37,965 nt of DNA from Spirochaetota bacterium. Lineage in GTDB: Bacteria > Spirochaetota > B62-G9 > DRHN01. The DNA lies in NCBI GenBank assembly GCA_020342115.1, contig CP070841.1, positions 3,487,531 to 3,525,495 of the forward strand. The letters are read 5' to 3'. The position numbers and the translations under genes were made by a program. A model generated the notes under the pieces. That model ran no database searches, was not told the origin of the DNA, and saw nothing but the letters and a program-made list of their open reading frames with translations. Positions 5,060 through 33,925 of this stretch are shown here, in pieces. Positions within the stretch are counted from its first letter, which is position 1. Every line of letters starts with the position of its first letter.

Positions 5060-5932
5060 ATGATCAGATACAAATGGTGGCAGCCTCTATTGTATCTTAC
5101 GCCGATGGGACTCGCAATTCTTTTTGTGTACGGTTATCCTATTATTAGACTTTTTGATTTCTCTATGAGGAGAATCAGAGGGGCGAGTGGCCCATTTATA
5201 GGTTTTGACAACTACAGATTTGTTCTGCGAAACCCTATTTTTCAGGAAGCAGTCAGGCATAACCTGTTTCTCCTTGTCGGTGTCCCGATTCTTATTATTA
5301 TTGCCCTGATCTTTGCTTCACTGCTGTTTGAGCAGCTTAAAGGATGGAAGTTTTATCGTTTCGCATTTTTTTTACCATACATTCTTGCAGTTCCTGTGAT
5401 AGGGATTGTTTTCAGTTATCTGCTGATGCTTCATGGAGCGTTAAACGAAACTCTGAGGTTTCTTCGCCTTGATTTTCTGGCTCTTGACTGGATAGGGAGT
5501 CCAAACATTGCCTTAAAAACTCTCCTTGCTATTATAGTCTGGAAGGAGATGGGGTTTGGCATAGTGCTTTTTTTTGCTCGGCTTATGAGTGTTTCTGAAG
5601 AAATATACGATGCTGCAAAGATCGACGGTGCAAACTGGTGGCAGACGCTCTGGTATATAACAATACCACAGCTTCAAATAGTAATAGAATTCTTTGCAAT
5701 TGTAACAATAATCAACCTGCTTTCATGGATTTTCGCCTATGTCTATACGATAACAAGAGGAGGTCCAGGCACATCGACACAGGTAATGGAACTATGGATT
5801 TTTAATAAAGTGGCTCGTGGTGCACCAAATCCCGGCATGGGTGCGGCCGCTTCGGTCATACTGTTTCTTGGAACAATTGTTCTCATATTTACCCTCCTGC
5901 GACTCAGAATGAGGGTGGGAGAAGAAGAATGA
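5060..5932 (+). CDS. Carbohydrate ABC permease (MalF/UgpA-like)
   Basis: Multiple hydrophobic segments and EAA loop YDAAKIDGANWWQ. Confidence 0.92.
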   Translation: MIRYKWWQPLLYLTPMGLAILFVYGYPIIRLFDFSMRRIRGASGPFIGFDNYRFVLRNPIFQEAVRHNLFLLVGVPILIIIALIFASLLFEQLKGWKFYRFAFFLPYILAVPVIGIVFSYLLMLHGALNETLRFLRLDFLALDWIGSPNIALKTLLAIIVWKEMGFGIVLFFARLMSVSEEIYDAAKIDGANWWQTLWYITIPQLQIVIEFFAIVTIINLLSWIFAYVYTITRGGPGTSTQVMELWIFNKVARGAPNPGMGAAASVILFLGTIVLIFTLLRLRMRVGEEE

Positions 5933-6786
5933 AAGAAATGAGCAAGAGAACTGGAGTTAGTTTCGAAAGAGCTACTCAAAAGGCAATAAAGCAATTGCTG
6001 CTCATCATAGTGGCATTTATTGCCCTTTATCCACTCTACTGGTTGATCATCACTGCATTTAAGACTCAGGCAGATTACCTGGTTAACAAATTTGGCCTCC
6101 CGTGGCCAATAATGATAGGTAACATAGTAACCGCTTTAAGGGGAGGACGTTTTGCAAGATGGTTTTTAAACTCAACGATAATTACAGCAGGTTCAACACT
6201 TGCGGGAACAACAATCGCCTGCCTTGCTGCATTCGCTTTTGCAAAAATGCCCTTCAGAGGAAGCAATGCAATACTCAATTTTGTCATCTCTCTGATGGTG
6301 GTGCCTCCTGTTGTGATGATTGTACCACTCTTCATTCTTTACGCCCAGATCGGGTTTACGTCCACCTATCAGGGCATTATTGTTCTCTACGTTGGGCTTA
6401 CGATGCCTTTTTCTGTATATCTGCTCACGAACTTTTTCAAAACGATTCCTCATGATATAGTCGACTCTGCAATGATGGATGGATGCAGCCATTTTGGAAT
6501 ATTGTGGCGTATATACGTTCCCCTTTCAGCACCAGCTTTGGTAACCCTTATTATTGTCAATGCTCTCTGGATATGGAACGAACTGCTCCTCGCATTGGTA
6601 TTTCTACCAAAAGATAAGATGAGAACCCTTATGGTAGGAATAACCGCATTTAGATCGAGGCTTAACCTCGATATTCCTGTAACAATGGCTGGATTGTTGT
6701 TGAGCACATTGCCGATGATAATACTCTATGTTGTTTTTCAGCGATTCTTTATCCGTGGACTCACCGCTGGTGCAACAAAAGGCTGA
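5929..6786 (+). CDS. Carbohydrate ABC permease (MalG/UgpE-like)
   Basis: EAA loop DSAMMDGCS and C-terminal QRFFIRGLTAGATKG. ATGA overlap with the upstream permease. Confidence 0.92.
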   Translation: MKEMSKRTGVSFERATQKAIKQLLLIIVAFIALYPLYWLIITAFKTQADYLVNKFGLPWPIMIGNIVTALRGGRFARWFLNSTIITAGSTLAGTTIACLAAFAFAKMPFRGSNAILNFVISLMVVPPVVMIVPLFILYAQIGFTSTYQGIIVLYVGLTMPFSVYLLTNFFKTIPHDIVDSAMMDGCSHFGILWRIYVPLSAPALVTLIIVNALWIWNELLLALVFLPKDKMRTLMVGITAFRSRLNLDIPVTMAGLLLSTLPMIILYVVFQRFFIRGLTAGATKG

Positions 6787-11703: not shown

Positions 11704-13140
11704 ATGAAACCTCCCTTTTTTGATATACTATCGAATCAAGAGATCATTCAAATAGATAGTGAATCAAAGCGTATCTTAGAAGAATCTGGTGTAAAAGTAC
11801 TACACGATGAATGCCTTAACCTACTAGAAGAGATAGGATGTAAAGTTGATAGAACATCTCAGATAGTACGCATTCCATCAAATGTAGTACAAAAAGTTGT
11901 TGAAGCAATACCTTCGAGTTTTTCATTATTTGGAAGAGACCCTGCAAAGAGAATTGAGCTCGGTGGTGAGAATGTTTATTTCGGTCCCGGGGGTTTTGCA
12001 GTTTTCGTAGAAGATTTGAATACAGGGAAAAGACGTCGCGCATTTAGACAGGACCTCATAGACCATCTCAAAGTCTCAGATGCATTGTCCGGATGTGAAT
12101 TTAACCATGTAAATGTCTTTCCGTCAGACATTCCGGAGAAAAATGCAGATCTCTATATATGGGCGGATGCTTTGATCTATCAGACAAAGCCAATAATGAG
12201 TGAGAACTATAATACAAGATCTGTAGAAGCTCTTGTTGAGATAGGCACAATTTTGAGAGGTGCACGAAAGGCTTTGATTGAAAAGCCTTTCCTCTGCCTC
12301 GATGTATGTGTGCTTTCGCCCTTAACCCACGACACACGTCAGGTTGATCTACTGCTTGCAGGAGCAAAATACGGGCTGCCTATAAGTATCAACTCAGGTC
12401 CAATAGCTGGAGCAACGAGCCCAGTTACTCTTGCTTCTGTTGTGTCCCAGGCCAATGCAGAGATTCTCAGTGCCATTGTCATTACCTTTGCCGCCACACC
12501 AGGAACACCGGTTCTCTACAGTAGCTGGGGCAGACACATGGATATGCGTTACTGCAATGTTACTATGGGGGGGCCGGAGTTTGCTTTATTAAAGGTATGT
12601 ATTTCACAGATGGGGAGGTATTATGGAATACCAACACGTGGTGGAGGTGCACTATCAGACAGCCTCTTGGTGGATACCCAGGCTGGATACGAAAAGATGC
12701 TTACCACCCTGATCCCGGCAATAGGTGGGCTTAACTATATCTCGGGAATGGGACTAAATGAAACTGAAAATCTTCAAAGCCTTGCCCAGCTTGTAATCGA
12801 TAATGAAATTGTTTCAATGGTAAAAAGGATTTTGAAAGGAGTAGAGGTGGACCGAGATCGCTTAGCAACCGAGCTTATCATCCAGAGAGGTCCAGGAAGT
12901 CATTTCCTTGATACCGATCACACCCTTCGTTTTTTTAGACAGGAGTTCTTTTATCCCGAGATTTCCAATCGAATGAAGTATGAGCCCTGGTCTGAAGGCG
13001 GAGCCCTTTCAGCAAGAGATCGTGCTCAAGAGAAAGCGAGAAAACTGCTTCAGAATAACCCTGAATCAGAGCTTGATTCACGAGTTATCAAAGAGATTTA
13101 TGAGATAGTAAAAAGAGAAGAAAGAACTAATAAAAATTAA
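11704..13140 (+). CDS. mttB: Non-pyrrolysine MttB-family corrinoid methyltransferase #1
   Basis: Motifs AGATSPVTLA, NAEILSA, DTQAGYEK, QLVIDNEI and GPGSHFL. Leu at the Pyl-equivalent site (GGGALSDS). Confidence 0.92.
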   Translation: MKPPFFDILSNQEIIQIDSESKRILEESGVKVLHDECLNLLEEIGCKVDRTSQIVRIPSNVVQKVVEAIPSSFSLFGRDPAKRIELGGENVYFGPGGFAVFVEDLNTGKRRRAFRQDLIDHLKVSDALSGCEFNHVNVFPSDIPEKNADLYIWADALIYQTKPIMSENYNTRSVEALVEIGTILRGARKALIEKPFLCLDVCVLSPLTHDTRQVDLLLAGAKYGLPISINSGPIAGATSPVTLASVVSQANAEILSAIVITFAATPGTPVLYSSWGRHMDMRYCNVTMGGPEFALLKVCISQMGRYYGIPTRGGGALSDSLLVDTQAGYEKMLTTLIPAIGGLNYISGMGLNETENLQSLAQLVIDNEIVSMVKRILKGVEVDRDRLATELIIQRGPGSHFLDTDHTLRFFRQEFFYPEISNRMKYEPWSEGGALSARDRAQEKARKLLQNNPESELDSRVIKEIYEIVKREERTNKN

Positions 13141-13154
13141 GAAGGGGTATAAAA

Positions 13155-14591
13155 ATGGGAAGTTGCTCACTGTCATTCGAACCTATGAATATTCTAACAG
13201 AAAAGGATTGTAATCTTATCCATGAAACAGCAATGGATATTTTAAATAAGGTAGGTGTGCACATTCCGCACCAGAAAACCCGTTCTATACTGATTGACGC
13301 AGGTGCCCATGGAGGTACTGGAGAAAGGGTTTATATTCCGGAAAGCGTTGTTCTCAATGCGATCAAGAGTGCTCCATCAGTCGTGTCTCTCACCGGTCTT
13401 GATCCGACCCATAAAGTAGATATCGGAGGATCCAATGTGTATTTCATGTCAGGGGCCGGACTTCTTGATGTACTGGATCTTGAGGGCAATATTCGGCCAT
13501 CGACTCTTGAGGATGTAGCTGATTTCACCCGTCTTTGTGATGCGCTTGAATATCTTGACGTTAACCATGGCGTTATAGATCCAGCCGATGTCCTTGGACC
13601 GGGTTTGTATCCTCTTGCAGCATCGAGGATAATTCCAAACACATCTAAGCCAACAGCCCTTGTGATTGATACAGGCAAGGATGTAGAGGCTATTGCAGAG
13701 ATGGCATCCGTTGCGCTTGGATCAGCTAAGGCTGTCAGAGATCGTCCCTTTTTCACCATACATGATTCAAATGCCAGACCTCCACTCCATCATGATCCTA
13801 AGAACTCTGAGGTTATTATTGAAGCATGTAGTAGAGGATTTCCAACAGGGCTATCCGTATGGCCAATGATTGGTCTCAGTTCTCCGATTACAATAGCAGG
13901 TACCATGGCACAGAAGTATGCGAATTTTTTTGCCGGCCTCGTACTTGCACAGAGTATTAATCCGGGCAATCCATTTCTCTTTCCTGTGGTATGTGGTGGG
14001 GTGGAAATGCGCACAGGGAATGTAGTGAGTGCGTCGCCAGATATAGCACTCGTAGGAATGGCAGGTGCCCAGATGGCCCGTTTTTATAACCTTCCTTCAG
14101 TCACTGTTATTGCTACTGACGCCAAGGTACCTGATGCTCAATCCGGTGCAGAGAAGGCATTTCTCTTGACCACTCAAGCACTGGCAGGAATCAATCTTAT
14201 TCATGGCTGTACAAGTGAGATGGATGGAATGATGATTGCCTCATTGGAGCAGTGCGTAATTGACAATGAGATAATGATGATGGTACGGCATCTCATTTCC
14301 GGTTTTATTGTGGATAGAGAAAACCTTGCATTTGAAGTTATCAAAGAGGTCTCTATTGGAGATGGCAACTACCTCGCTCATCAGCACACACTTGAGCGTT
14401 TCAGGAAATTGCTGTTTGAACCAAAAGTATTTACAAAGGACAGGAGAGCAGATTGGATTTCAAAGGGATCATTGTCTGCAAGGCAGCAGGCTCGAATGAG
14501 GGCTGAAAAGATTTTAGTCGAGCACTTTCCTTCACACATGTCAAAGGAGCAGGTAGCGGAAATTGAAAAGATTGCTGAGTCATACAGATGA
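13155..14591 (+). CDS. mttB: Non-pyrrolysine MttB-family methyltransferase #2
   Basis: Motifs GLSSPITIAG, TDAKVPDAQSGAEK, EQCVIDNEI and GNYLAHQHT. Confidence 0.9.
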   Translation: MGSCSLSFEPMNILTEKDCNLIHETAMDILNKVGVHIPHQKTRSILIDAGAHGGTGERVYIPESVVLNAIKSAPSVVSLTGLDPTHKVDIGGSNVYFMSGAGLLDVLDLEGNIRPSTLEDVADFTRLCDALEYLDVNHGVIDPADVLGPGLYPLAASRIIPNTSKPTALVIDTGKDVEAIAEMASVALGSAKAVRDRPFFTIHDSNARPPLHHDPKNSEVIIEACSRGFPTGLSVWPMIGLSSPITIAGTMAQKYANFFAGLVLAQSINPGNPFLFPVVCGGVEMRTGNVVSASPDIALVGMAGAQMARFYNLPSVTVIATDAKVPDAQSGAEKAFLLTTQALAGINLIHGCTSEMDGMMIASLEQCVIDNEIMMMVRHLISGFIVDRENLAFEVIKEVSIGDGNYLAHQHTLERFRKLLFEPKVFTKDRRADWISKGSLSARQQARMRAEKILVEHFPSHMSKEQVAEIEKIAESYR

Positions 14592-14601
14592 AGGGGGATT
14601 G

Positions 14602-15663
14602 TTACTTCCCGACATCATGTAACTTCATCCAAGCTTGGCAGATTGCATCGATATTATCGAGGGGAACATCCCTGCTAGGTATCGCATAGAGCATCAGCCC
14701 TCCCTTGGAAGTTCCCACTGATTCGACAATCTCCCGAACCTGGTTTTCGATTTCTTCCGGTGTAGCATATGGTAGCATCTGCTCGTCTATATCCACAAGG
14801 GCACACAATTTTCCCCTGTATTCCTTTGCAATGCCTTGAATCGTATTGGCTCGCACCTGAGGATCGTGCAGTGACACGCCGCATTCAAAGAGATCGTTAA
14901 CAATATCTAGAACATTGCCGTCAGAGGAGTACCAGACATGGACTCCCTCCTTTCGGCAGTACTGAAACATTTTCATATAGAAAGGTTTGAGCCACTTACG
15001 AAAAGTTTTGGGACTAATAAGGAGGCCATTTTGAGTACCAATATCACCATGAAACCAGATCACGTCGATATCTATCTCCAGCCAGAGGTCTATATACCTC
15101 ATGTTATATGAAAATACCATATCGATAAGCTCGTGTAATTCAGGGGGCTCTGTGACAAAGTCAACAAGCAGGTTTTCAAGGCCTCGTAAAAACTGAAGCC
15201 GGTCAAAAAAACCGCCATGGGCGAATGATTCTGGAAATCCAATGACCGGAAGACCTGCATCCCGTTCAATCTTCTTTTCCTTTTTGAGTCTCTTCCAGTC
15301 GGCCTGTTCGGCAGGGTCGGGAACCTTAAGAGACCGCAATCCATTCCAGTTTTCGAGGGGATGACCGATGACCTGCCCAAGTATTCCATCCTGAGCGTTG
15401 TACCAAGTACATCCCCAGTCGTCTATTACTGTTTGCCCTTCGATATACAGAGGATTGGTCGCTACGGGAGATATCTGGCCTTTTTCGTACCCCTCAAAAA
15501 TGTCGGGATACCGTAATATAAGCTCCTCCAGATTGACCCCATGTTGCTTCCATACTGCAGGCAGGAGCTCGAAGATAATGGGAATCCACTGTGGTCGGTT
15601 AAACTCAATAGCACGCAGGAAGTTATCCCGTGATGATATGTTTCGGTTTAAGCAGGGTGTCAT
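14602..15663 (-). CDS. UroD/MtaA-CmuA-fold protein (uroporphyrinogen decarboxylase superfamily)
   Basis: Motifs DDWGCTW, FLRGLENLLVD, GDIGTQNGLLISP, SSDG and DVPLDNI. No HemE RQAGR motif. Start is ATG 15663 or TTG 15672. Confidence 0.85.
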   Translation of the reverse strand: MTPCLNRNISSRDNFLRAIEFNRPQWIPIIFELLPAVWKQHGVNLEELILRYPDIFEGYEKGQISPVATNPLYIEGQTVIDDWGCTWYNAQDGILGQVIGHPLENWNGLRSLKVPDPAEQADWKRLKKEKKIERDAGLPVIGFPESFAHGGFFDRLQFLRGLENLLVDFVTEPPELHELIDMVFSYNMRYIDLWLEIDIDVIWFHGDIGTQNGLLISPKTFRKWLKPFYMKMFQYCRKEGVHVWYSSDGNVLDIVNDLFECGVSLHDPQVRANTIQGIAKEYRGKLCALVDIDEQMLPYATPEEIENQVREIVESVGTSKGGLMLYAIPSRDVPLDNIDAICQAWMKLHDVGK

Positions 15664-15679
15664 GTCATGCAATTACCTC

Positions 15680-17638: not shown

Positions 17639-18520
17639 TTGATACTAAGAACGAAAAAATTCACCCCTTATATCTACTTGTTTCCTGCCATTCTAATTCT
17701 GGGACTGATTTACGGTTACTCATTGGTGAGGGTATTCGATTTTTCCACAAGAAGGATCAGAGGCATAACCGGTGTATTCATAGGTCTTGATAATTATAAA
17801 TTTGTAATTAGTGACCCCGTATTCAGGAAGGCAGTTCTAAATAACATAAATCTTTTTGTGTTGATTCCGATATTGGTGTTTTTGGCAATTATTATTTCAT
17901 ATTTATTATTTGAGCAGCTCAGAGGCTGGAAAGTTTATAGAGGTGTAATTTTTATGCCTTATATTTTACCAATACCAGTGGTAGGGGTCATTTTCGGGTA
18001 TATGTTCACTTTACATGGGGTTGTTAATAGTTTTTTAAAACTTGTTAAGTTAGATTTTTTAGCCATCGATTGGCTGGGAAGCCCCAAATTTGCGTTGTGG
18101 ACTTTAATGATCATCATTTTATGGAAAGAATTGGGTTTTGGGATAATTCTTTTTTTGGCACGGCTTATGAGCTTGGAAAAAGAGATTTTTGAAAGCGCCG
18201 AGATTGACGGTGCAGGCTGGTGGGGTAAATTATTTTATGTAACCATTCCTCAGATGAGAACAATAATTGAGTTTTTTGCTATTATTACTGTGATAAACAT
18301 GCTCAGCTGGGTTTTTGCCTACTCCTATACGGTTACGCTTGGTGGTCCCGGGGATGCTACTATGGTAATGGAGCTGTTCATATTTAATAAGCTTGGAAGA
18401 AGTCAATTACCGATGCCTGGGATAGCGTCTGCTGCGTCAGTGTTTCTGTTTTCTGGGACAGCCGTTTTGATATTCTTTTTGTTCAGAATTCGAAAAGAGA
18501 TCGGGCAGGAAGAAACCTAA
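17639..18520 (+). CDS. Carbohydrate ABC permease (MalF-like), paralog of 5060..5932
   Basis: Motifs FDFSTRRIRG, WKELGFGIILFLARLMS and EAA loop ESAEIDGAG. Confidence 0.92.
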   Translation: MILRTKKFTPYIYLFPAILILGLIYGYSLVRVFDFSTRRIRGITGVFIGLDNYKFVISDPVFRKAVLNNINLFVLIPILVFLAIIISYLLFEQLRGWKVYRGVIFMPYILPIPVVGVIFGYMFTLHGVVNSFLKLVKLDFLAIDWLGSPKFALWTLMIIILWKELGFGIILFLARLMSLEKEIFESAEIDGAGWWGKLFYVTIPQMRTIIEFFAIITVINMLSWVFAYSYTVTLGGPGDATMVMELFIFNKLGRSQLPMPGIASAASVFLFSGTAVLIFFLFRIRKEIGQEET

Positions 18521-18667
18521 TGTGGACAAGCCACATGCTTGATTCAAATACTTTATTGCCAGACTGGCAAGAAAATCAAGGTTAAGGTACTAATGAGGGT
18601 TACTCTCATTTTTGATTAAAATTATTTTTTTGCTAGAATAGCAAAAAATGAGGATTAAGGTATTAAT
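18518..18667 (+). repeat. Two tandem 73-bp two-hairpin mosaic repeat units
   Basis: TAAT recurs at 18518, 18591 and 18664. Each unit is hairpin A, then TTGATT, then hairpin B (TTGC..GCAA), then TTAAGGTA. Confidence 0.85.
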
Positions 18668-18684: not shown

Positions 18685-19527
18685 ATGCAGAACACAAAGC
18701 TATTAAATTACAATTATGGTAACTTTTTTAAATACCTTTTAATAATTTTAGCCTCTCTAGTTTGTATTTATCCTCTCTTTTGGCTGATTACCGTATCCCT
18801 CAAGACCCAGGCTCAGTATTTAGCCAGTAAGTTCAGTCTGCCCTGGCCTTTATATTTTCAAAATTTTATATCAGCCGTAGATAATGAAAAATTTTTTCTA
18901 TGGTTTATGAACTCTGGCATTCTCACTGTAGGCTCGGTTGCTCTCTGTACCATAATATCTCTTTTAGCTGCGTATGCTATTGTATTCATGAGTTTTAGGG
19001 GAAAGCAGATTATCATGAATAGCATAATCTCATTGATGGCGGTCCCAATTGTGGTAATGATAGTGCCTCTATATATTTTGTTTGTTCGTATCCATCTTAT
19101 GAGTACCTATCCAGGAGTGATACTGATATATTCTGCAGTATGCATCCCTTTCTCTATATATCTTTTAACCAGCTTTTTCAAGAGTCTTCCCGGAGAATTA
19201 TTGGAAGCTGCTATTATCGATGGTTGTAGTAACTTAAAAGTTTTGTCAAAGGTAATCATTCCTTTATCGGGCCCACCGGTACTTACTCTCATTATAGTAA
19301 ATGCATTATGGGTATGGAACGATCTATTAATTGCATTAGTGTTCCTGCCCAGAACGGACATGAGAACTCTAATGGTGGGGTTGACAGTGTTCAAATCAAA
19401 ATTTAATTTAGATGTTCCGCTCACTATGGCAGGTTTACTTATAGTATCTTTGCCTATGATTATTATTTATATAATCTTTCAAAGATACTTCATCCGGGGT
19501 TTAATCTCGGGAGCATTGAAAGGATAA
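18685..19527 (+). CDS. Carbohydrate ABC permease (MalG-like), paralog of 5929..6786
   Basis: Motifs EAAIIDGCS, WNDLLIALVFLP and QRYFIRGLISGALKG. Confidence 0.92.
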   Translation: MQNTKLLNYNYGNFFKYLLIILASLVCIYPLFWLITVSLKTQAQYLASKFSLPWPLYFQNFISAVDNEKFFLWFMNSGILTVGSVALCTIISLLAAYAIVFMSFRGKQIIMNSIISLMAVPIVVMIVPLYILFVRIHLMSTYPGVILIYSAVCIPFSIYLLTSFFKSLPGELLEAAIIDGCSNLKVLSKVIIPLSGPPVLTLIIVNALWVWNDLLIALVFLPRTDMRTLMVGLTVFKSKFNLDVPLTMAGLLIVSLPMIIIYIIFQRYFIRGLISGALKG

Positions 19528-20325: not shown

Positions 20326-21735
20326 CTAAGCAATAATCTCTTCCAACTTTTCAACTGTCCCTGGATCAATGTACTGAGCACGGGGCTCAGAAAGGATTTT
20401 CTGTGCCTTTTCATGGGCTTCCATATAGACATCCTTCGACCCATCCTTAATCCAGCGCTCATAGAGTGTCCTGCATGAAATCTCGGGATACCAATTTTCA
20501 TTTTTGAAATGTTTGATCGTATGTTCCTCCTCGAGAAATGACCCCCATGTACCGATCTTATTGATTACATCAACTGCTAGGTGGTCATCTGTGACCTCGA
20601 TTCCCCTTTGAAAACGGCGGAGCATACTGAAAACCTCATGGTCAAGAACAAGGGATTCATAAGACACGGTAAGTCCGGTAGAGAACATCCCAAGGTTTAC
20701 AATTACATCAATTCCGGCGCTGATACAGGCCATAGCTGATAAAGCCTTTTCCCAGCTACACTGCTGGTCTACGATATGAGCATCTGTATCAAACCCAATT
20801 GAATGGCTTGGGATCCCATAGAAACGGGCCATCTGTGCTCCTGCAAGGCGAAGCAACATGGTCTCAGGAGTAGCAATGATTGGGTTTCCCTCTCTCATGT
20901 TAAAGAGGGTGTGTGCATTGCAGTACACCACAGGGAATCCCTCCTTCAGTATTTGTGAAATGGCAATGCCAGAAAGAACCTGTGCATTATGCTGTACTAA
21001 GTGGCCTGCAAGAGTGACGGGTGACGTTGCCCCGGCCATTGGAGCAGGGAGTATGTAAAAGGGTACACCGTTTGCGACAGTGTTCATAACGATTTCGCTT
21101 GCAGAAGGTGTCCATTCTTGAGGCGCTGATGGAGAGATATGACATGAAACAACCGGCTTTGATCCAATATCATCACTACCGATGGCGATTTTTATCATCT
21201 GATATACTGCATCTGCAATGACACCCGTATCAGGAGCAATAATGATATGTTTACATGTATTTTGAAGTAGCATTGAAACTGCATGGGCTTCTGCCTTTTG
21301 TTGCTGTACATCCTGGGGCAATCCCTGGACTCCAACTATACTGATGTCACTCAACTGATCGGCAATCCACGCGAAATCTCCGACCTCCTTTTTTGTAATT
21401 GGTTTTCTTTTTCCTGTATTATAGTCCAGTGTAAATGTCCCATCGAAACCATTCACTGCATGAGTGATTCCCTTTCCTATCTCAATTGGGCTTTCTCCAT
21501 CCCGTGCGTATAGTTTGATCGTGTTAGGTGCTTTCTTAATAAGGTCTTCTACAATCTGACCTGGGAATTTTGCAACTTTATGCTCCCAATCAATTTTCAC
21601 ACCTGCGCTTCCTAATTGTTTTAATAGCTCATCATTGAGTATTCTGGATCCAGTGTGCTCCAGTACTTCAAGTGATGCTGTATGAACCGCCTCTACTTCC
21701 TTCTTGGTTAATGCCTTGTAGAATTCAATTTTAAT
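20326..21735 (-). CDS. mttB: Non-pyrrolysine MttB-family methyltransferase #3 (apparent ATT start)
   Basis: Motifs MAGATSPVTLAG and DTDAHIVDQQCSWEK. Frame extends upstream of GTG 21600 as IKIEFYKALTKKEVEAVHTASLEVLEHTG, matching paralog N-termini. AAGGAG lies 9 nt before ATT 21735. Confidence 0.88.
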   Translation of the reverse strand: MKIEFYKALTKKEVEAVHTASLEVLEHTGSRILNDELLKQLGSAGVKIDWEHKVAKFPGQIVEDLIKKAPNTIKLYARDGESPIEIGKGITHAVNGFDGTFTLDYNTGKRKPITKKEVGDFAWIADQLSDISIVGVQGLPQDVQQQKAEAHAVSMLLQNTCKHIIIAPDTGVIADAVYQMIKIAIGSDDIGSKPVVSCHISPSAPQEWTPSASEIVMNTVANGVPFYILPAPMAGATSPVTLAGHLVQHNAQVLSGIAISQILKEGFPVVYCNAHTLFNMREGNPIIATPETMLLRLAGAQMARFYGIPSHSIGFDTDAHIVDQQCSWEKALSAMACISAGIDVIVNLGMFSTGLTVSYESLVLDHEVFSMLRRFQRGIEVTDDHLAVDVINKIGTWGSFLEEEHTIKHFKNENWYPEISCRTLYERWIKDGSKDVYMEAHEKAQKILSEPRAQYIDPGTVEKLEEIIA

Positions 21736-22266: not shown

Positions 22267-23370
22267 ATGAACTCAAAGGAGAGAATGCAGACAGCAATGG
22301 AGCATGAGGAACCAGACAGGGTACCATTCATGGCGACCTTTGTACCGGAAGTAGAGCTTCTGTTAAAAAAGAAATATTGTAGAGAGCTCGAAAAGATCGA
22401 TATCCATACTGAAATGAAGTATCAGGGTATGAACGAGCTCGATATACTTTTCGGGCACGATATGCTTCTTTTAACATTCGGAATATCAACAGGGTACTAC
22501 CGAAATACTCCATCCGATACCTACATTGATGAATGGGGAATCAAATGGAAAAAGTCACCATATGAAACGATCAATGGGATTGGACACTATACTGAGATCG
22601 TCGGGTTTCCACTTGAGGATAGTAGCAAGGTCGATTCATATAAACCTCCCAATCCGGATGACGAAGATATGGGTTATGCTGAAAGGATCATCGAGCAGTT
22701 CGGGACGGAGAAGTATATCTGTGGTATAATCGACTGCTCAATATTCGAAGCGCTGAAGTATCTCAGGGGAATCACCCAGAGCCTCATTGATCTTGTGGCA
22801 GAAAAGGATATTGCTCATAAGATAATGGACATATCAGTGGAATACCATCTGCAGCTGGGCTATAAGCTCATCGACCGGGGAGTAGATATACTCTGGCTTG
22901 CAGATGATATAGGCGGCGAACATGCATTGTTGATGTCTCCTGAGACATTTCGTGAAATGATCAAACCAAAAATGGGATATATGATCGGAGAGCTGAAGCG
23001 CCATAACTCAAATGTGAAGGTTGCCTTTCATAGCGATGGGTATATCGAGCCTGTGATCGATGATCTCATAGAGATAGGGGTTGATCTTCTTAACCCTATT
23101 CAACCTGAGTCGATGAACCCGTCCTTTATTAAAAGACGATACGGAGATCGCATCAGTCTCTGGGGAACAGTAAGTACACAGGTGACCTTTCCATTTAAGA
23201 GTCCTGAGGATATTGCCAACGAGGTGAAGGAAAGGATCAAAACCTGTGGTCCAGGTGGAGGATTTCTGATCGCACCTACACATAATCTCCAGCTTGATGT
23301 ACCTCTTGAAAATATTGATGCATTCTATAAAGCTGTAAGTGAGTACGGGAGCTATCCGATCAGATTATAG
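22267..23370 (+). CDS. UroD/MtaA-CmuA-fold protein
   Basis: Motifs MNSKERM..EPDRVP, DEWGIKW, LRG, ADDIG..LLMSP, FHSDG, LNPIQPE and GGGFLIAPTHNLQLDVPLENI. Confidence 0.9.
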   Translation: MNSKERMQTAMEHEEPDRVPFMATFVPEVELLLKKKYCRELEKIDIHTEMKYQGMNELDILFGHDMLLLTFGISTGYYRNTPSDTYIDEWGIKWKKSPYETINGIGHYTEIVGFPLEDSSKVDSYKPPNPDDEDMGYAERIIEQFGTEKYICGIIDCSIFEALKYLRGITQSLIDLVAEKDIAHKIMDISVEYHLQLGYKLIDRGVDILWLADDIGGEHALLMSPETFREMIKPKMGYMIGELKRHNSNVKVAFHSDGYIEPVIDDLIEIGVDLLNPIQPESMNPSFIKRRYGDRISLWGTVSTQVTFPFKSPEDIANEVKERIKTCGPGGGFLIAPTHNLQLDVPLENIDAFYKAVSEYGSYPIRL

Positions 23371-23572: not shown

Positions 23573-25000
23573 ATGAAACTTCAAATATTAGAGGTACTGT
23601 CAGATGAAGAGATAAAAAAGATTCATGAAGCATCGATCGATATTCTTGAGCAGTGCGGAGTAAAAATTTACAACAAACGTATGCTCGATTATCTAGCTGA
23701 AAAGGGTATCGTTGTAGATTCAGAAAATCAGATTGCCCACTTTACACGTACAGCTATCGAGGATTCGCTTAATTCGATTCCCAGAACTTTTGAAGTATTT
23801 AACAGGGAAGGTAAGTTTGCATTTGTTTTGGGCGATGGCATTTCAAAAATTGCTGCAGGGCATAATGCTATATTCTGGGTTGATACCGATACTGGTAAAA
23901 CCCGTTATGCAACAGTTAATGACGTTGAACTATGTGCACGTATCTGTGATGATTTAGAGTATATTGATATGGTTGGGACTCCTGTTATGCCACAGGATGT
24001 AAAAGACCCAAAATCAACCTTGCTCTATGGTGTAAAAGCGGTAATAGAAAACAGTAAAAAACCTGTGTTTTTTTCTACTGACAATGAAAAGGTTAATAAC
24101 TCGGTTATCGGTCTATTAAAAGCTGCTTTTGTGGGAGATATTAAGAATGAAGTTTACGGTATATCACAGCTTTCACCAACATCGCCACTCTACTGGGAAG
24201 AGAACGTAATAAATGCCATCATGGATACAGTTGAAACTGGAGTACCGTTGGCTATTCTTCCCGAGCCAAATGCGGGTGTGTCGGCACCCTATACACTAGC
24301 TGGCCTGCTCACAATGAACAACGCAGAATGTCTATCAGGGCTTGCTATGATTCAGATGCTGAGGCCCGGCACAAAAGTTCTGTATGCCAATTCTTGGACC
24401 ACAACTGACATGAGTAATGCTGCAGCTCTCGTGGGATCAACGGAAACATCTATATGTCGAATAGCTGGAGCACAGCTTGCAAGATTCTATAATGTGCCTT
24501 CTCACACTACAGCGCCGAACTCTGATAACCATGCACATGACGAGCAAAATGCCTGGGAGAAAACATTTAGTATGTTCTGTTCAGTTGGTGCTGGTAACGA
24601 CCTCGTAGTCAACTGTGGCATGTTTGCAACCGGAATGACATTCAGCCATGAGCAGTTGATTATGGATGAAGAGATATCGGCTATGTCTAAAAGGATTGCC
24701 GAAGGTATACAGGTATCTGATGATACAATAGCGGCTGATATGATTACAAAGATTGGTCCCGGGCCTGCTGGTGATAAATATTTAACTGCGGAACATACAC
24801 TTGAGTGGCTACGATCTGATGAATATTTATTTCCCCGAGTTTCAGTAAGGGGTGCATTTGCTCTCTGGGAATCGACCGGTAGCAAGGATACATATCAACT
24901 GGCACGTGATAAGGTTAAAGAGTATAAAAAAATGAAACCTGCTCGGATAGATACAGTAAGAATGGAAAAACTTAGTGAAATAGTAAAAAGTTTCATTTGA
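23573..25000 (+). CDS. mttB: Non-pyrrolysine MttB-family methyltransferase #4
   Basis: Motifs IHEASIDILEQCG, SPTSPL, APYTLAG, NNAECLSG, DEQNAWEK and EQLIMDEE. Confidence 0.92.
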   Translation: MKLQILEVLSDEEIKKIHEASIDILEQCGVKIYNKRMLDYLAEKGIVVDSENQIAHFTRTAIEDSLNSIPRTFEVFNREGKFAFVLGDGISKIAAGHNAIFWVDTDTGKTRYATVNDVELCARICDDLEYIDMVGTPVMPQDVKDPKSTLLYGVKAVIENSKKPVFFSTDNEKVNNSVIGLLKAAFVGDIKNEVYGISQLSPTSPLYWEENVINAIMDTVETGVPLAILPEPNAGVSAPYTLAGLLTMNNAECLSGLAMIQMLRPGTKVLYANSWTTTDMSNAAALVGSTETSICRIAGAQLARFYNVPSHTTAPNSDNHAHDEQNAWEKTFSMFCSVGAGNDLVVNCGMFATGMTFSHEQLIMDEEISAMSKRIAEGIQVSDDTIAADMITKIGPGPAGDKYLTAEHTLEWLRSDEYLFPRVSVRGAFALWESTGSKDTYQLARDKVKEYKKMKPARIDTVRMEKLSEIVKSFI

Positions 25001-26442: not shown

Positions 26443-27582
26443 ATGTTGATGGAGTCAATAGCTGAAGTAGATCATAATGAAATTGAGAAGAGAAAGGAAA
26501 CGATTTCCAGAATGTGGGAATATAAGAAAATCGATCATATTCCAATTGGAGTATGGATCGATGATTTCAGTCAATATACACTAAGAGAGCAGTGTGAAGA
26601 TGGTCTGAAGCAGTTTGAGACAATGGTTAATTGTGCTAATAGATGCCTGAGGAATCTACCCGATGATTATATACCATATGTAAGAATCTGGCCTGGATAC
26701 ATGACAATTGCGACTATGTTCGGAATGGAAATCTACTGGAGTGATGATCCCAATCAGGCGCCGGGAACAAAGGGGCATATAATAGAAGTTATGGATGATG
26801 TCTATAACCTCAAAATGCCTGATGCAAAGAAGGATGGACTCATGCCGCACAATTTAAAGTGGTTGAGTTATGCAGACAAAAACTTGCCAAAAGACGTATA
26901 CATTGCGGGCATTGACCTGGGCGGTCCACTCAATACAGCGAAGGATCTGCTGGAAACAAACCTTCTCTATACTTCATTCTTAGATTCCCCAGATGCCATG
27001 CATTACCTGCTTAAGCTTGTTGCTGAACTGCAAAGAAAATGCAATGAAGAGATTATTAGAGCGGTGGATGGGCTTCAGCGACTGACATGTACAGATTTTG
27101 ATCCTATCTGGGCTCCTCTTCCGTATAAGGGCTTTGTATCTGATGACGTATGCTCTGCTCTTAGTCCAGATATTTTTAAGATTTTCAGTATTCCATATAA
27201 TAATATGATATTCGATGGATTTGATGGAGGGCGTTTGCACAACTGCGGGCCAAACCCTTCTGCAAATCTGTACCATCGACATGATATTAAAAGATTCGGC
27301 TTGAACTGCTCATATAAATATTCGAAAGATGATATTCAAGTATTGAAAAGCGTATTTAGCGGAAAGGGTATAATAGAGTTTAATTTTGATAACGGAGAAA
27401 GTGCTGATGAAATTTTAAAGGGATTTGAAGAGATTGCAAATGTACTCTCTCCTGATGTCATAGGAATGCCTGTACTCTTTTTAAACGAGTCCTGGAGGGA
27501 TGAGGATCTGCGTAGCATTTATGCTGATCTCCGAAAGATTTCTGATGATTACGCAGGCGCAATAGAATGGACTTGTGAATAG
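26443..27582 (+). CDS. Divergent UroD/MtaA-fold protein
   Basis: Motifs DLGGPLNTA, DSPDAMHYLL, VSDDVCSALSPDIF..FSIPY and LHNCG (HxC). Confidence 0.7.
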   Translation: MLMESIAEVDHNEIEKRKETISRMWEYKKIDHIPIGVWIDDFSQYTLREQCEDGLKQFETMVNCANRCLRNLPDDYIPYVRIWPGYMTIATMFGMEIYWSDDPNQAPGTKGHIIEVMDDVYNLKMPDAKKDGLMPHNLKWLSYADKNLPKDVYIAGIDLGGPLNTAKDLLETNLLYTSFLDSPDAMHYLLKLVAELQRKCNEEIIRAVDGLQRLTCTDFDPIWAPLPYKGFVSDDVCSALSPDIFKIFSIPYNNMIFDGFDGGRLHNCGPNPSANLYHRHDIKRFGLNCSYKYSKDDIQVLKSVFSGKGIIEFNFDNGESADEILKGFEEIANVLSPDVIGMPVLFLNESWRDEDLRSIYADLRKISDDYAGAIEWTCE

Positions 27583-29117: not shown

Positions 29118-29140
29118 CAGACTAATTTTATCCGAAATTC

Positions 29141-29332
29141 TGATTTTCTTGCCACACCCCCTATTTTTAAAAGGGGGTAGGGCAAGAAAACATATAAATC
29201 ACAAATATGGCTTGCCGTATAATGTTGCTTGCTACATAATGTGGCTTGTCCACATTAGCACATTAAATTCAATTTTCTTGCTGTTTCTGCAAGAAAATAT
29301 AAAAATTAAGAATGTGGTTTGTCCACATTAGG
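29141..29332 (-). repeat. Second array of the 73-bp mosaic repeat family (reverse orientation)
   Basis: The reverse complement of 29258-29330 aligns without gaps to 18518-18590. Further copies of hairpin A and an expanded hairpin B lie at 29141-29257. Confidence 0.85.
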
Positions 29333-31796: not shown

Positions 31797-33242
31797 ATGG
31801 TATTTTTTATTGAAAAATTAACAAGACCAACGGTGTTGAATAATGAAGAAATTTTAAAAATCCATGAGAATTCACTGAAAGTGTTGGAAGATACCGGGAT
31901 GTATATAGATAACGACGAGGTATTGAAGACGTGCCTTGACATGGGATTGAATGCAGAACTCAACAAGAAGATTGTAAAATTTCCTCGTGATGTTGTTGAA
32001 AAAAGTTTACAGAGTATTCCCAAGGAAATAAAACTGTATAATCGTTCAGGTGATCTGGCTACGGAGTTGGGAAGAGTCAAAGGTAACTTTACAAGCGGCC
32101 ATAATGCAATTTATGTATATGATTATGATACCAATGAGAGAAGAAATGCCACAAAAGATGATGTAGGTAAATTCGCAGTATTATCAGACTATCATCCAGA
32201 TATCGATATCGTAGGAATTCAGGCTATGCCTCAGGATGTCAAAGCAGAATCTTCTCTTGTACATGCTGTGGATGCAGTGTTTAATAACACTGAAAAACAT
32301 ATCTTTTTTTCTCCTGAGAGAGCAGAAGTTGCTGATGCAATTTTTAATATTGCAGAAGTAGCGACAGACAGCAGCGACCTGGGTGGCAGGTCTCCTCTGA
32401 CCTGCCAGTTATCACCGACATCACCCCTGACATGGGAAAAAGGTGCAATCGAAGCACTGAGTTCAACAGTAAAAAAGGGAGTGCCTCTGTGCCTTCTTCC
32501 ACAGCCATTTACCGGGGTTACTTCTCCATATACTTTAGCCGGGCACATCACAATACATAATGCAGAAACCCTTTCAGGTATTGTTTTCAGTCAGCTGATT
32601 AATCCAGGGTCTGCTGTCATTTATGGAAGCGCCTGGTCCACTTTTGATATGAGAACGGCCAATGTATTGATCGGTTCACCCGAAACAGTGCTATTGAGAA
32701 TAGCGGGATCACAGATGGCTGAGTTTTATCACATACCTTATCATACTATTGCTCCTGACACTGACGCACACATAATGGATGAACAGCTGGCCTGGGAAAA
32801 ATTTGCAACTACGTGGGGTGCATATCTTGCAGATTCGGACCTCATAGTGAATGGGGGTTTATATAGTACCGGGCTCACTGTGAGCTTTGAACAATTGATA
32901 TTGGATAGTGAAATGGTTTCGTATATAAAAAGACTGTTCCGCGGTATTAAAGTAGATGATGATACACTCGCACAGGATGTAATTGAAAAACTCGGACCGA
33001 GGGGTAACTACCTGGCAGATGAACATACACTGATGCATCTCGGTCAAGGAGAACACTGGGAGCCAATGGTATCGACGAGGGAAATATATGAAAATTGGAA
33101 GACAAAGGGAATGAAAGACATTGTGCATAAGGCTCATGAGAAGGCAACCTCAATAATGGAGAATCACAGAGTGAGTGAGCTTTCGGATAACAAGAGAAAA
33201 GAGATCGTAAAAATAATTGATAATTTTGAGAGCAGTATATGA
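31797..33242 (+). CDS. mttB: Non-pyrrolysine MttB-family methyltransferase #5
   Basis: Motifs SPTSPLTW, TSPYTLAG, HNAETLSG, DTDAHIMDEQLAWEK and GPRGNYL. Confidence 0.92.
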   Translation: MVFFIEKLTRPTVLNNEEILKIHENSLKVLEDTGMYIDNDEVLKTCLDMGLNAELNKKIVKFPRDVVEKSLQSIPKEIKLYNRSGDLATELGRVKGNFTSGHNAIYVYDYDTNERRNATKDDVGKFAVLSDYHPDIDIVGIQAMPQDVKAESSLVHAVDAVFNNTEKHIFFSPERAEVADAIFNIAEVATDSSDLGGRSPLTCQLSPTSPLTWEKGAIEALSSTVKKGVPLCLLPQPFTGVTSPYTLAGHITIHNAETLSGIVFSQLINPGSAVIYGSAWSTFDMRTANVLIGSPETVLLRIAGSQMAEFYHIPYHTIAPDTDAHIMDEQLAWEKFATTWGAYLADSDLIVNGGLYSTGLTVSFEQLILDSEMVSYIKRLFRGIKVDDDTLAQDVIEKLGPRGNYLADEHTLMHLGQGEHWEPMVSTREIYENWKTKGMKDIVHKAHEKATSIMENHRVSELSDNKRKEIVKIIDNFESSI

Positions 33243-33283: not shown

Positions 33284-33925
33284 ATGCAACCAACAATAGA
33301 AACTCTACGAAAGGCGATCCAAGAATATAACAGTGGGCTGGCCTTGAAAACAGCACAAGAGATTGTAGATCAAAAGATTGATCCACTTGTTGCCATTAAT
33401 GCAATGACTGAGACTATCAGAGAAATAGGTGAAGCTTTTGGGCAGGGAAAATTATGGTTGCCTGACCTTGTTGGAGCTTCAGATGCGATGCAGGCTGCGT
33501 TACCGGTATTGGATGAAGAGATACAAAGAAGGGGTGAGCATAGAGATACGAGAGGTGTGGTCATTGTTGGCGCTGTATTCGGTGATATACACAGTATTGG
33601 CAAGACGATGGTTGCAGCACTGCTGACAGCATCCGGATTTCAAGTGGAAGATTTAGGTGTTAACATTCAATCAGAGCAATTTATTGAGGCAATAAAGAGC
33701 CACAATGCAGATATTCTGGCAATGTCCGCACTCATGACGACAACCATTGCGGAGCAAAAGAAGGTAATTGAAGTGCTTAAAGAAACAGGCCTGAGGGAAA
33801 AGGTAAAAGTTATGGTTGGAGGAGCAGCAGTAACCGAGGAGTTTGCAAAAGATATTGGGGCTGATGGATATGATCCTACTGCACCGGGTGCTGTAGAGCT
33901 TGCAATGAAACTGATCGGAAAATAA
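33284..33925 (+). CDS. Methyltransferase cognate corrinoid (B12-binding) protein, MttC/MtbC-like
   Basis: Cap domain (IGEAFGQG..LPDLV), DxHxxG motif (GDIHSIG), SALMTTT and VMVGGAAVT..IGADGY. Confidence 0.95.
   Translation: MQPTIETLRKAIQEYNSGLALKTAQEIVDQKIDPLVAINAMTETIREIGEAFGQGKLWLPDLVGASDAMQAALPVLDEEIQRRGEHRDTRGVVIVGAVFGDIHSIGKTMVAALLTASGFQVEDLGVNIQSEQFIEAIKSHNADILAMSALMTTTIAEQKKVIEVLKETGLREKVKVMVGGAAVTEEFAKDIGADGYDPTAPGAVELAMKLIGK

What the first reader, a model, noticed from the sequence alone, without database searches (positions are those of the whole stretch)
18518..18667. 73-bp two-hairpin tandem repeat with compensatory changes between two permease genes
Unit 1 (18518-18590) is TAATGTGGACAAGCCACATG-CTTGATT..TTGCCAGACTGGCAAGAAAATCAAGGTTAAGGTAC. 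Unit 2 (18591-18663) is TAATGAGGGTTACTCTCATT-TTTGATT..TTGCTAGAATAGCAAAAAATGAGGATTAAGGTAT, followed by TAAT again at 18664. The period is exactly 73 bp. Both stems change sequence but keep pairing (ATGTGG/CCACAT to ATGAGG/TCTCAT; TTGCCA/TGGCAA to TTGCTA/TAGCAA), which implies selection on structure. Unit 1 begins at the permease stop codon. In the paralogous operon the same two genes overlap (5929-5932), which suggests an insertion here. Inference: a REP/BIME-like mosaic element or a structured RNA motif that I cannot assign to a known family.
Basis: partly seen in the sequence, partly recalled or inferred. Interest (0 to 1): 0.7.

Follow-up and report, generated by a model that had tools for sequence, protein, structure and literature searches.

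The report
Tandem pair of a dispersed hairpin repeat
The two 73-base units between the permease genes are two head-to-tail copies of a small, probably mobile, two-hairpin repeat that is scattered through this spirochaete genome and several of its relatives; it is an ordinary kind of element, but this family does not seem to have been described.

Summary
Units 18518-18590 and 18591-18663 share 53 of 73 positions, each has two hairpins, and unit 1 supplies the stop codon of permease 1.

The pair is not a local oddity. It is a head-to-tail dimer of an ~80-nt repeat with sharp ends: (C)CCTA | ATGTGG-ACAAG-CCACAT | TCTTGATT, AT-rich | an 11-bp hairpin TTTTCTTGCC/GGCAAGAAAA | CAGTATTAAGGTACTA.
- The window's own genome holds about 25 mostly decayed copies.
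- Four related genomes of the same family hold 38 to more than 50 each. One has copies 95-100% alike.
- Nine other genomes of the family have none.
- An exact-pattern scan of 185,579 species genomes found it only in six Spirochaetota MAGs.

The orthologous permease junctions in two other genera carry 17-22-nt spacers and no element. Both stems are kept through compensatory changes.

There is no Rfam, plasmid or phage match. No cognate transposase was found: the three Y1 genes of this genome carry unrelated inverted repeats of their own.

Verdict: a REP/BIME-like, non-autonomous repeat, and a new member of a known kind. The mobilising enzyme and any local effect on the operon are unknown.

The parts
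17639..18520 (+). ABC-transporter permease 1. Its last codon(s) and its TAA stop (18518-18520) lie in the left end of the repeat.
   Evidence: ORF list; Pfam BPD_transp_1. The orthologues in G007 and G014 end with different C-terminal codons and their own stop.
18516..18519 (+). CCTA, the conserved tetranucleotide directly 5' of hairpin 1. It is either the left tag of the element or its preferred target.
   Evidence: T, A and the second C are present in 90% or more of the 76 aligned copies. In arrays CCTA is replaced by ACTA, the right end of the preceding copy.
18520..18592 (+). Unit 1, a full copy of the repeat and 85% identical to the family consensus. Hairpin 1 spans 18520-18536, hairpin 2 spans 18556-18570, and the right end AAGGTACTA spans 18584-18592.
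   Evidence: Best nhmmer match in the genome, E=6e-19, though unit 1 was one of the five seeds of that profile. Independently, 87% identical to a G011 copy. Alignment A2, identity, fold -19.5 kcal/mol with z=-2.6.
18593..18665 (+). Unit 2, a diverged copy of the repeat: 71% identical to the consensus and 70% to unit 1. Hairpin 1' spans 18592-18610, hairpin 2' spans 18630-18644, and the right end AAGGTATTA spans 18657-18665.
   Evidence: nhmmer E=0.005, identity, fold. Two consensus-only matches on the + strand: a terminator-like site at 18592-18610 and a promoter-like site TTGATT-16-TAGAAT at 18612-18639.
18685..19527 (+). ABC-transporter permease 2. Its own Shine-Dalgarno sequence (GAAGGAAAGG) lies just after the array.
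   Evidence: ORF list, Pfam, sequence.
29137..29332 (-). Two further decayed copies of the same family, in the opposite orientation, upstream of the aminotransferase gene at 29347. They include three tandem hairpin-1 units (29200-29255) and a hairpin 1 at 29312-29328 that abuts the Shine-Dalgarno sequence.
   Evidence: TRF row 29200-29255, pattern matches, and nhmmer hits at genome 3516667-3516753 and 3516801-3516862.

Best explanation
The 146-nt array is a head-to-tail dimer of a small, non-autonomous, dispersed repeat of about 80 nt. The family is confined, as far as searched, to one family of Spirochaetota.

Shown:
- It is a multi-copy family with sharp ends.
- It has two conserved hairpins.
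- Head-to-tail arrays recur, and successive units share the letters CTAA at the junction.
- It is absent from the orthologous permease junction in two other genera, and from three sites in a congener of a genome that carries many copies.
- Its distribution among genera is patchy.
- In one genome the copies are nearly identical.

Inferred:
- The element spreads by transposition, and the dimer arose by two separate insertions. Unit 2 came first. Unit 1 later landed 3' of the CCTA next to unit 2. This fits unit 1 being 85% and unit 2 only 71% like the consensus.
- The insertion replaced the last codons of permease 1 and gave it a new stop codon.
- The form that is recognised is folded single-stranded nucleic acid of the strand reading ATGTGGACAAGCCACAT. 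That would fit a HUH/Y1-type enzyme acting on hairpin DNA next to a conserved tetranucleotide, as with REPs. The enzyme has not been identified.
- At this locus the element widens the gap between the permease cistrons from about 20 nt to 164 nt and puts four stem-loops into the operon transcript. This probably loosens translational coupling and may change mRNA stability or read-through. No effect was measured.
For: Copy numbers at E<=1e-5:
- G000 10, G011 38, G006 56, G014 42, G001 51. In G006, G014 and G001 only 40 of 101, 84 and 266 first-look candidates were scored.
- G007, G015 and G016 have 1 each.
- 0 in 9 other genomes of the family, and 0 of 3 genomes of two neighbouring families.
- nhmmer finds about 25 copies in G000 at E<0.01.

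Wider distribution: an exact 27-nt pattern gave 73 loci in the species-genome collection. All lie in six MAGs labelled Spirochaetota, Spirochaetales or Spirochaetes.

Sharp ends: flanks are unrelated beyond CCCTA... and ...GGTACTA.

Empty sites:
- G007:C37 and G014:C508 carry the same permease pair at 72-77% DNA identity, with spacers of about 17 and 22 nt.
- 3 of the 6 G011 loci tried had both flanks in congeneric G002, and none of the three held the element there.

Identity:
- G011 copies are 95-100% alike.
- Copies in different genera are 87-95% alike. Flanking coding DNA is only 69-78% alike even within a genus.

Arrays: I count 11 head-to-tail pairs among the coordinates listed for the relatives, and the pairs whose sequence was printed share CTAA at the junction.

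Structure:
- Hairpin 1 is paired in 98% of cells and hairpin 2 in 90%.
- 7 pairs show changes on both sides, in 48 cells, and 0 of 500 shuffles reached that.
- Hairpin 1 has 11 G.T and 0 A.C mismatches on the top strand.
Against: - No transposase with matching ends was found. The three Y1 genes of G000 have unrelated inverted repeats of their own, 25-36 nt long, and no copy of the element within about 1.4 kb. G001 and G014 carry many copies but no detected Y1 gene.
- TnpB and IS630-type genes do not follow the element's distribution.
- The exact junction could not be read, so a target duplication cannot be told from insertion next to CTA. The empty sites are 70-78% diverged.
- The main compensatory changes mark subfamilies, so they may be few events copied many times. 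The 11:0 count has the same weakness.
- Hairpin 2 shows no strand asymmetry: 13 G.T against 12 A.C.
- The copies in G000 are old (47-78% alike), so the element may no longer be active here.
Confidence: 0.8

Rival explanations
1. A conserved cis-regulatory cassette rather than selfish DNA. On this reading the repeat is a portable promoter, terminator and ribosome-binding module, with a stem-loop that stabilises or gates the mRNA, and it is kept because it controls neighbouring genes.
For: - In G000 several copies sit directly upstream of genes, with hairpin 1 abutting the Shine-Dalgarno sequence (...CCACATTAGGGGG..ATG).
- 12 of 45 copies have a start codon 8-22 nt beyond the hairpin-1 end.
- Seven copies lie between divergent genes and one between convergent genes.
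- Consensus scans give weak promoter-like sites (9 of 12 matches) on both strands, and a terminator-like call for hairpin 2 on the bottom strand.
- Between genera the element is more conserved than coding DNA.
Against: - The shifted control for start codons gave 7 of 45, so the enrichment is weak.
- Copies lie in both orientations between co-directional genes: 8 one way and 13 the other.
- The copy in question is inside an operon. Read on the bottom strand, where the best by-eye promoter match lies (TTGCCA-17-TTGAAT, my reading and not called by the scan), it would fire antisense into permease 1.
- Orthologous and congeneric sites work without it.
- Copy number runs from 0 to more than 50 among genomes of one family.
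- Tandem arrays are hard to explain as promoters.
Confidence: 0.1
2. A family of small structured RNAs or an RNA cis-element (riboregulator) transcribed from each copy.
For: - The hairpins covary.
- Hairpin 1 tolerates G.T but not A.C on one strand.
- A consensus-like copy folds at -24.5 kcal/mol with z=-5.4.
Against: - No Rfam match at E<=10, other than three chance-level hits far below the gathering scores.
- Copies have no fixed orientation to their neighbours.
- There is no consistent promoter and terminator pair.
- The same features are expected of hairpin DNA recognised by a transposase.
- Sharp ends, arrays and empty sites point to insertion.
Confidence: 0.05
3. A purely local tandem duplication of an intergenic spacer, with no wider meaning.
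For: Two adjacent units with an exact 73-nt period.
Against: - There are dozens of unlinked copies in this genome and in others.
- Unit 1 is much closer to the family consensus (85%) than to unit 2 (70%).
Confidence: 0.01

Closest known systems
REP sequences and BIME mosaics of enterobacteria and pseudomonads, including GTAG- and CGTC-tagged REPs (PMC3733652, passages read). The malE-malF example is recalled.
   Same: - A short imperfect palindrome with a conserved unpaired tetranucleotide at the foot of the stem.
- Extragenic, often inside operons.
- Tens to hundreds of copies.
- Modular mosaics and arrays.
- Patchy between relatives.
- Thought to act as hairpins in RNA or single-stranded DNA.
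   Different: - The tag is CCTA, not GTAG or CGTC.
- The unit is a fixed ~80-nt composite of two different hairpins.
- Arrays are head-to-tail, not alternating inverted pairs.
- No RAYT gene is flanked by it.
- It lies more often near gene starts than at convergent gene ends.
REPIN/RAYT systems and TIRtrons (Y1 transposase genes flanked by REPs or by long inverted repeats; PMC3733652, passages read).
   Same: The genome has three RAYT-like Y1 genes, and one of them passes the NCBIfam cut-off. The logic of a hairpin beside a tetranucleotide would suit such an enzyme.
   Different: These genes carry inverted repeats of their own, 25-36 nt long and starting with GGGG-rich motifs. Those repeats are unrelated to the element. 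Two genomes rich in the element show no Y1 gene.
MITEs, such as Correia elements of Neisseria or RUP of pneumococcus (recalled).
   Same: Small, non-autonomous, intergenic, with sharp ends. TA or CTA lies on both sides. Such elements can carry promoter-like and terminator-like sequences.
   Different: There are no terminal inverted repeats beyond CCT...AGG. No parent IS was found. IS630-type transposases do not co-occur with it.
MIRUs of mycobacteria and BOX elements of pneumococcus (recalled).
   Same: Direct tandem units of 40-100 nt between the genes of operons, built from modules.
   Different: No sequence relation was tested or is expected. MIRUs are not built around two conserved hairpins, as far as I recall.

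Membership tests
REP (repetitive extragenic palindrome) | An imperfect palindrome of 20-40 nt whose stem is kept through compensatory changes | tested here: met
   Hairpin 1 has a 7-bp stem and a 5-nt loop and is paired in 98% of cells. UA changes to CG in 17 of 76 copies, and there are further variants.
REP (repetitive extragenic palindrome) | A conserved unpaired GTAG or CGTC tag at one end (PMC3733652) | tested here: not met
   The conserved tag is CCTA on the 5' side (TAGG on the other strand).
REP (repetitive extragenic palindrome) | Many extragenic copies | tested here: met
   10 to more than 50 scored copies per carrier genome. All examined copies lie between genes or overlap only gene ends.
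REPIN/RAYT system | A RAYT gene flanked by the same repeats | tested here: not met
   Six Y1 loci were examined in G000, G011 and G006. None has the element within about 1.4 kb. The three G000 genes have unrelated inverted repeats.
REPIN/RAYT system | Doublets in inverted orientation | tested here: not met
   Pairs are head-to-tail: I count 11 such pairs and one inverted pair among the listed coordinates.
BIME-like mosaic | Different modules combined in varying arrangements | tested here: met
   - Hairpin-1-only copies and tandem hairpin-1 runs in G000.
- Matches to only the left or only the right part of the element in relatives.
- An extra hairpin inside hairpin 2's region in L015 and L036.
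- A 36-nt tandem hairpin array between the two modules in L022.
MITE | Terminal inverted repeats | tested here: not met
   Only CCT...AGG at the ends can pair. This 4-pair helix is paired in 71% of cells.
MITE | Target-site duplication | tested here: inconclusive
   CTA(A) lies on both sides and is shared at array junctions. The empty sites are too diverged to tell a duplication from insertion next to CTA.
IS200/IS605-derived hairpin element | A parent element encoding TnpA (Y1) or TnpB with the same ends | tested here: not met
   No TnpB was found in G000, G011 or G006. One element copy lies beside a broken TnpB fragment in G001 (L156), with no matching second end.
Rfam RNA families | A match to a curated covariance model | tested here: not met
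   Best hit scores 18 bits against a gathering score of 100, E=0.6.

The most novel reading that the evidence does not exclude
A REP-like repeat system that works without a RAYT. The element is 87-95% alike between genera whose coding DNA is only about 70-78% alike. It has amplified recently in one lineage. It co-occurs with none of the Y1, TnpB or IS630 genes that were tested. It could therefore be moved by an unrecognised enzyme. Alternatively the host may keep it as a portable cassette whose two outward-facing ends (TTAGGG.. and ..TAAGGT) serve as ribosome-binding sites and whose hairpins set mRNA stability.
Probability: 0.15. Interest if true: 0.6.

Novelty: new member of a known kind. Interest (0 to 1): 0.35.

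Why it matters
Small palindromic repeats shape operon expression and genome rearrangement, and they break metagenome assemblies. Most known families come from proteobacteria. This one is a clean, well-bounded family from a little-studied, largely uncultured spirochaete group. It has a carrier genome with near-identical copies and a congener with none, which makes a good natural system for finding the enzyme that moves such elements. For annotation, it explains an odd 164-nt gap inside a permease operon and the altered C-terminus of permease 1. Its profile can be used to mask or flag the repeat in related genomes.

Tried and rejected
- Tandem Repeats Finder at score 30 did not list the array.
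- Rfam with permissive filters gave only chance-level hits.
- RNA evidence: no RNA holder was listed for the locus.
- Laying contigs of four sediment metagenomes gave one 270-nt contig identical across both units. No contig skipped them, and much of the stretch was uncovered. So there is no population-level empty site.
- GC skew gave very unequal arms and little gene-strand bias. I dropped the test of orientation against replication.
- Six G011 loci were compared with congeneric G002 to read the insertion junction. Three had both flanks. All three lacked the element, but the spacers are too diverged to define the junction to the base.
- A simple operator reading (a dimeric DNA-binding protein on ATGTGG..CCACAT) was rejected, because stems change on both sides together.
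- The third and fourth helices suggested by folding (CTTGAT/ATTAAG and CCT/AGG) have almost no covariation support.
- Candidate enzymes: the Y1 genes are not flanked by the element. TnpB and IS630-type DDE_3 do not follow its distribution.
- No plasmid or phage record matches.
- Earlier notes of this scan held nothing on this genome's repeats.
- Literature: two full-text searches found general REP and MITE surveys but nothing on this family. ISfinder could not be searched.

Full report
**Observation**

The sequence is as described. Permease 1 (17639-18520, BPD_transp_1) ends with TAA at 18518-18520. Permease 2 (BPD_transp_1) starts at 18685.

- The two 73-nt units, 18518-18590 and 18591-18663, align with 53 identical positions and one 1-nt gap in each.
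- Hairpin 1 is ATGTGG-ACAAG-CCACAT at 18520-18536. In unit 2 it is AATGAG-GGTTACT-CTCATT at 18592-18610.
- Hairpin 2 is TTGCCA-GAC-TGGCAA at 18556-18570. In unit 2 it is TTGCTA-GAA-TAGCAA at 18630-18644.
- Each hairpin has one position changed on both sides with the pair kept.
- The paralogous permease pair (5060-5932 and 5929-6786) overlaps by 4 nt.
- Tandem Repeats Finder missed the array, because the units are only about 70% alike.

**A dispersed family in this genome**

The hairpin-1 palindrome occurs three times in the window, against 0.09 expected. The other two lie at 29239 and 29312.

In the whole genome (3.53 Mb, one contig, 41.5% G+C) a profile built from five copies finds about 25 matches at E<0.01. 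Unit 2 is among them, at E=0.005.

The copies share one architecture:
- CCTA
- hairpin 1
- TCTTGATT and an AT-rich stretch
- hairpin 2 (TTTTCTTGCC..GGCAAGAAAA)
- ..TTAAGGTACTA

**The family in relatives**

A search of 41 related genomes with the two permease genes returned many short hits to the 80 nt of unit 1. Dedicated searches then gave, at E<=1e-5:

| Genome | Matches | Note |
|---|---|---|
| G000 | 10 | the window's own genome |
| G011 | 38 | copies 95-100% alike |
| G006 | 56 | 40 of 101 first-look candidates scored |
| G014 | 42 | 40 of 84 candidates scored |
| G001 | 51 | 40 of 266 candidates scored |
| G007, G015, G016 | 1 each | |
| 9 other genomes of the same family | 0 | |
| 3 genomes of two neighbouring families | 0 | |

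An exact 27-nt degenerate pattern, scanned over one genome for each of 185,579 species, gave 73 loci. All lie in six MAGs labelled Spirochaetota, Spirochaetales or Spirochaetes. There was no match among plasmids or phages.

**Boundaries and arrays**

When copies are printed with their flanks, similarity stops abruptly outside (C)CCTA on the left and GGTACTA(A) on the right. An alignment of 76 distinct copies has 80% mean column identity.

Head-to-tail pairs recur in relatives. I count 11 among the listed coordinates, plus one inverted pair. At the printed junctions the right end of one unit supplies the CTAA that precedes hairpin 1 of the next (..AAGGTACTAATGTGG..).

The family is also modular:
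- Hairpin-1-only copies and tandem hairpin-1 runs occur in G000.
- Matches to only the left or only the right part occur in relatives.
- Some copies have an extra hairpin (L015, L036).
- One G006 copy (L022) has a 36-nt tandem hairpin array between the two modules.

**Insertion at this site**

The closest homologues of the permease pair are G007:C37 (77% and 75% DNA identity) and G014:C508 (75% and 72%). Their spacers are about 17 and 22 nt and hold no element. Their permease 1 genes end with different last codons and their own stop. The window's 164-nt spacer minus the 146-nt array leaves 18 nt.

Of six G011 loci compared with congeneric G002, three had both flanks in G002, and none of the three held the element there.
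- In one, the upstream G011 gene runs into the element and takes its last eight codons and its stop from it.
- In another, the element sits between a conserved -10-like box and the ribosome-binding site.

The spacers are too diverged to read the junction to the base. A CTA or TA target duplication therefore cannot be told from insertion 3' of CTA.

**Age**

- G011 copies are 95-100% alike.
- G000 copies are 47-78% alike.
- Unit 1 is 85% like the consensus, unit 2 is 71%, and the two units are 70% alike.

This fits two separate insertions better than a local duplication.

Copies in different genera are 87-95% alike. Flanking coding DNA is 69-78% alike even within a genus. This points to spread between lineages or to strong constraint.

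**Structure**

On the 76-copy alignment hairpin 1 is paired in 98% of cells and hairpin 2 in 90%. Seven pairs show changes on both sides, in 48 cells. None of 500 shuffles reached that, and slid controls pair in 35-46% of cells.

The two large classes are UA to CG at one pair of each hairpin, in 17 and 22 copies. They mark subfamilies and may be few events. Scattered single variants exist as well.

In hairpin 1 there are 11 G.T and 0 A.C mismatches on the strand reading ATGTGGACAAG... This suggests that strand is the folded one. Hairpin 2 shows no such bias (13 against 12). At the locus in question the favoured strand is the mRNA strand.

A consensus-like copy folds at -24.5 kcal/mol with z=-5.4. 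Unit 1 folds at -19.5 with z=-2.6. Two further helices proposed by folding have no real covariation support.

**Context of copies**

Among 32 copies with 1.5-kb flanks, orientation to neighbouring genes is mixed:
- 8 and 13 in the two orientations between co-directional genes
- 7 between divergent genes
- 1 between convergent genes
- 3 with one side uncalled

In about a quarter of copies (12 of 45) a start codon follows the hairpin-1 end within 8-22 nt, so that ..TTAGGG(A)G serves as the ribosome-binding site. A shifted control gave 7 of 45. Consensus scans give only marginal promoter-like and terminator-like calls on both strands. I treat any regulatory use as possible exaptation and not as the reason the family exists.

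**Search for the enzyme**

G000 has three Y1 (IS200-like) genes of 293-351 aa. One passes the NCBIfam cut-off for REP-associated tyrosine transposase and carries a DnaA-type helix-turn-helix.

None has the element within about 1.4 kb. Each is bracketed by inverted repeats of its own, 25-36 nt long and 96-100% complementary. These start with GGGG-rich motifs, as described for TIR-associated tyrosine transposases in the passages I read of PMC3733652.

G001 and G014, both rich in the element, show no Y1 gene, but they are 85% and 88% complete. TnpB is absent from G000, G011 and G006. IS630-type DDE_3 does not follow the element's distribution. One copy beside a broken TnpB fragment in G001 looks coincidental.

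**Comparison with known families**

The element works like a REP/BIME. It is a palindrome with an adjacent conserved tetranucleotide. It is extragenic and sits inside operons. It forms modular mosaics and arrays and is patchy among relatives.

It fails the sequence tags of the two REP superfamilies (GTAG and CGTC; PMC3733652, passages). It also fails the RAYT-flank test and the inverted-doublet test of REPINs, and it lacks the terminal inverted repeats of MITEs.

I found no description of it. Two full-text searches returned general surveys. In PMC12306157 (passages read) the Spirochaetota genomes listed are Leptospira, Borrelia and Spirochaeta thermophila. ISfinder could not be consulted.

**Verdict**

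It is a new member of a known kind of element, of moderate interest. What moves it, and what it does to the permease operon, remain open.

Noticed in passing
G000 genome 919955-921010, 74064-74945 and 1548643-1549545 (loci L043, L046, L048): Three Y1 (IS200-like, RAYT-like) genes of 293-351 aa. Each is bracketed by its own inverted repeats, 25-36 nt long and 96-100% complementary, starting with GGGG-rich motifs. One gene has a DnaA-type helix-turn-helix. They look like 'TIRtrons' and are unrelated to the repeat studied here.
   Followed up: partly
window 11704-14591, 20326-21600, 23573-25000, 31797-33242, 34002-35450, with 14602-15672, 22267-23370, 26443-27582 and 33284-33925: The window holds seven MttB-family methyltransferase genes, three URO-D-like genes and one corrinoid (B12-binding) protein gene. 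Sugar-type ABC transporters and aminotransferases lie among them. This is a dense island for methyl transfer from unknown methylated amines. The gene at 20326-21600 lacks about 70 N-terminal profile positions and has no canonical start further upstream.
   Followed up: partly
L022 (G006:C14), about 1330-1480: A 36-nt unit that contains its own GC-rich hairpin (TTGAGGCCTGCGGCCTCAA) is repeated head to tail without spacers. It lies between a hairpin-1 module and a hairpin-2 module of the repeat. L035 shows the start of the same unit. It is a second repeat family that combines with the first.
   Followed up: no
L025 (G011:C157) 1665-1817: The spacer next to an element copy holds a stretch of about 150 nt that matches another contig of G002 (C89) at 82-85% on both strands. 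This may be yet another repeat.
   Followed up: no
window 18612-18639: The changes that distinguish hairpin 2 of unit 2 from the family consensus create a + strand TTGATT-16-TGCTAGAAT. This is the only promoter-like site in the region with a TG-extended -10, and it lies 46 nt upstream of the permease 2 start. It is a consensus match only.
   Followed up: no
whole G000 genome: Cumulative GC skew has its minimum at 3.17 Mb and its maximum at 0.56 Mb, which gives very unequal arms, and gene-strand bias is weak. The contig also holds 31,100 N.
   Followed up: no
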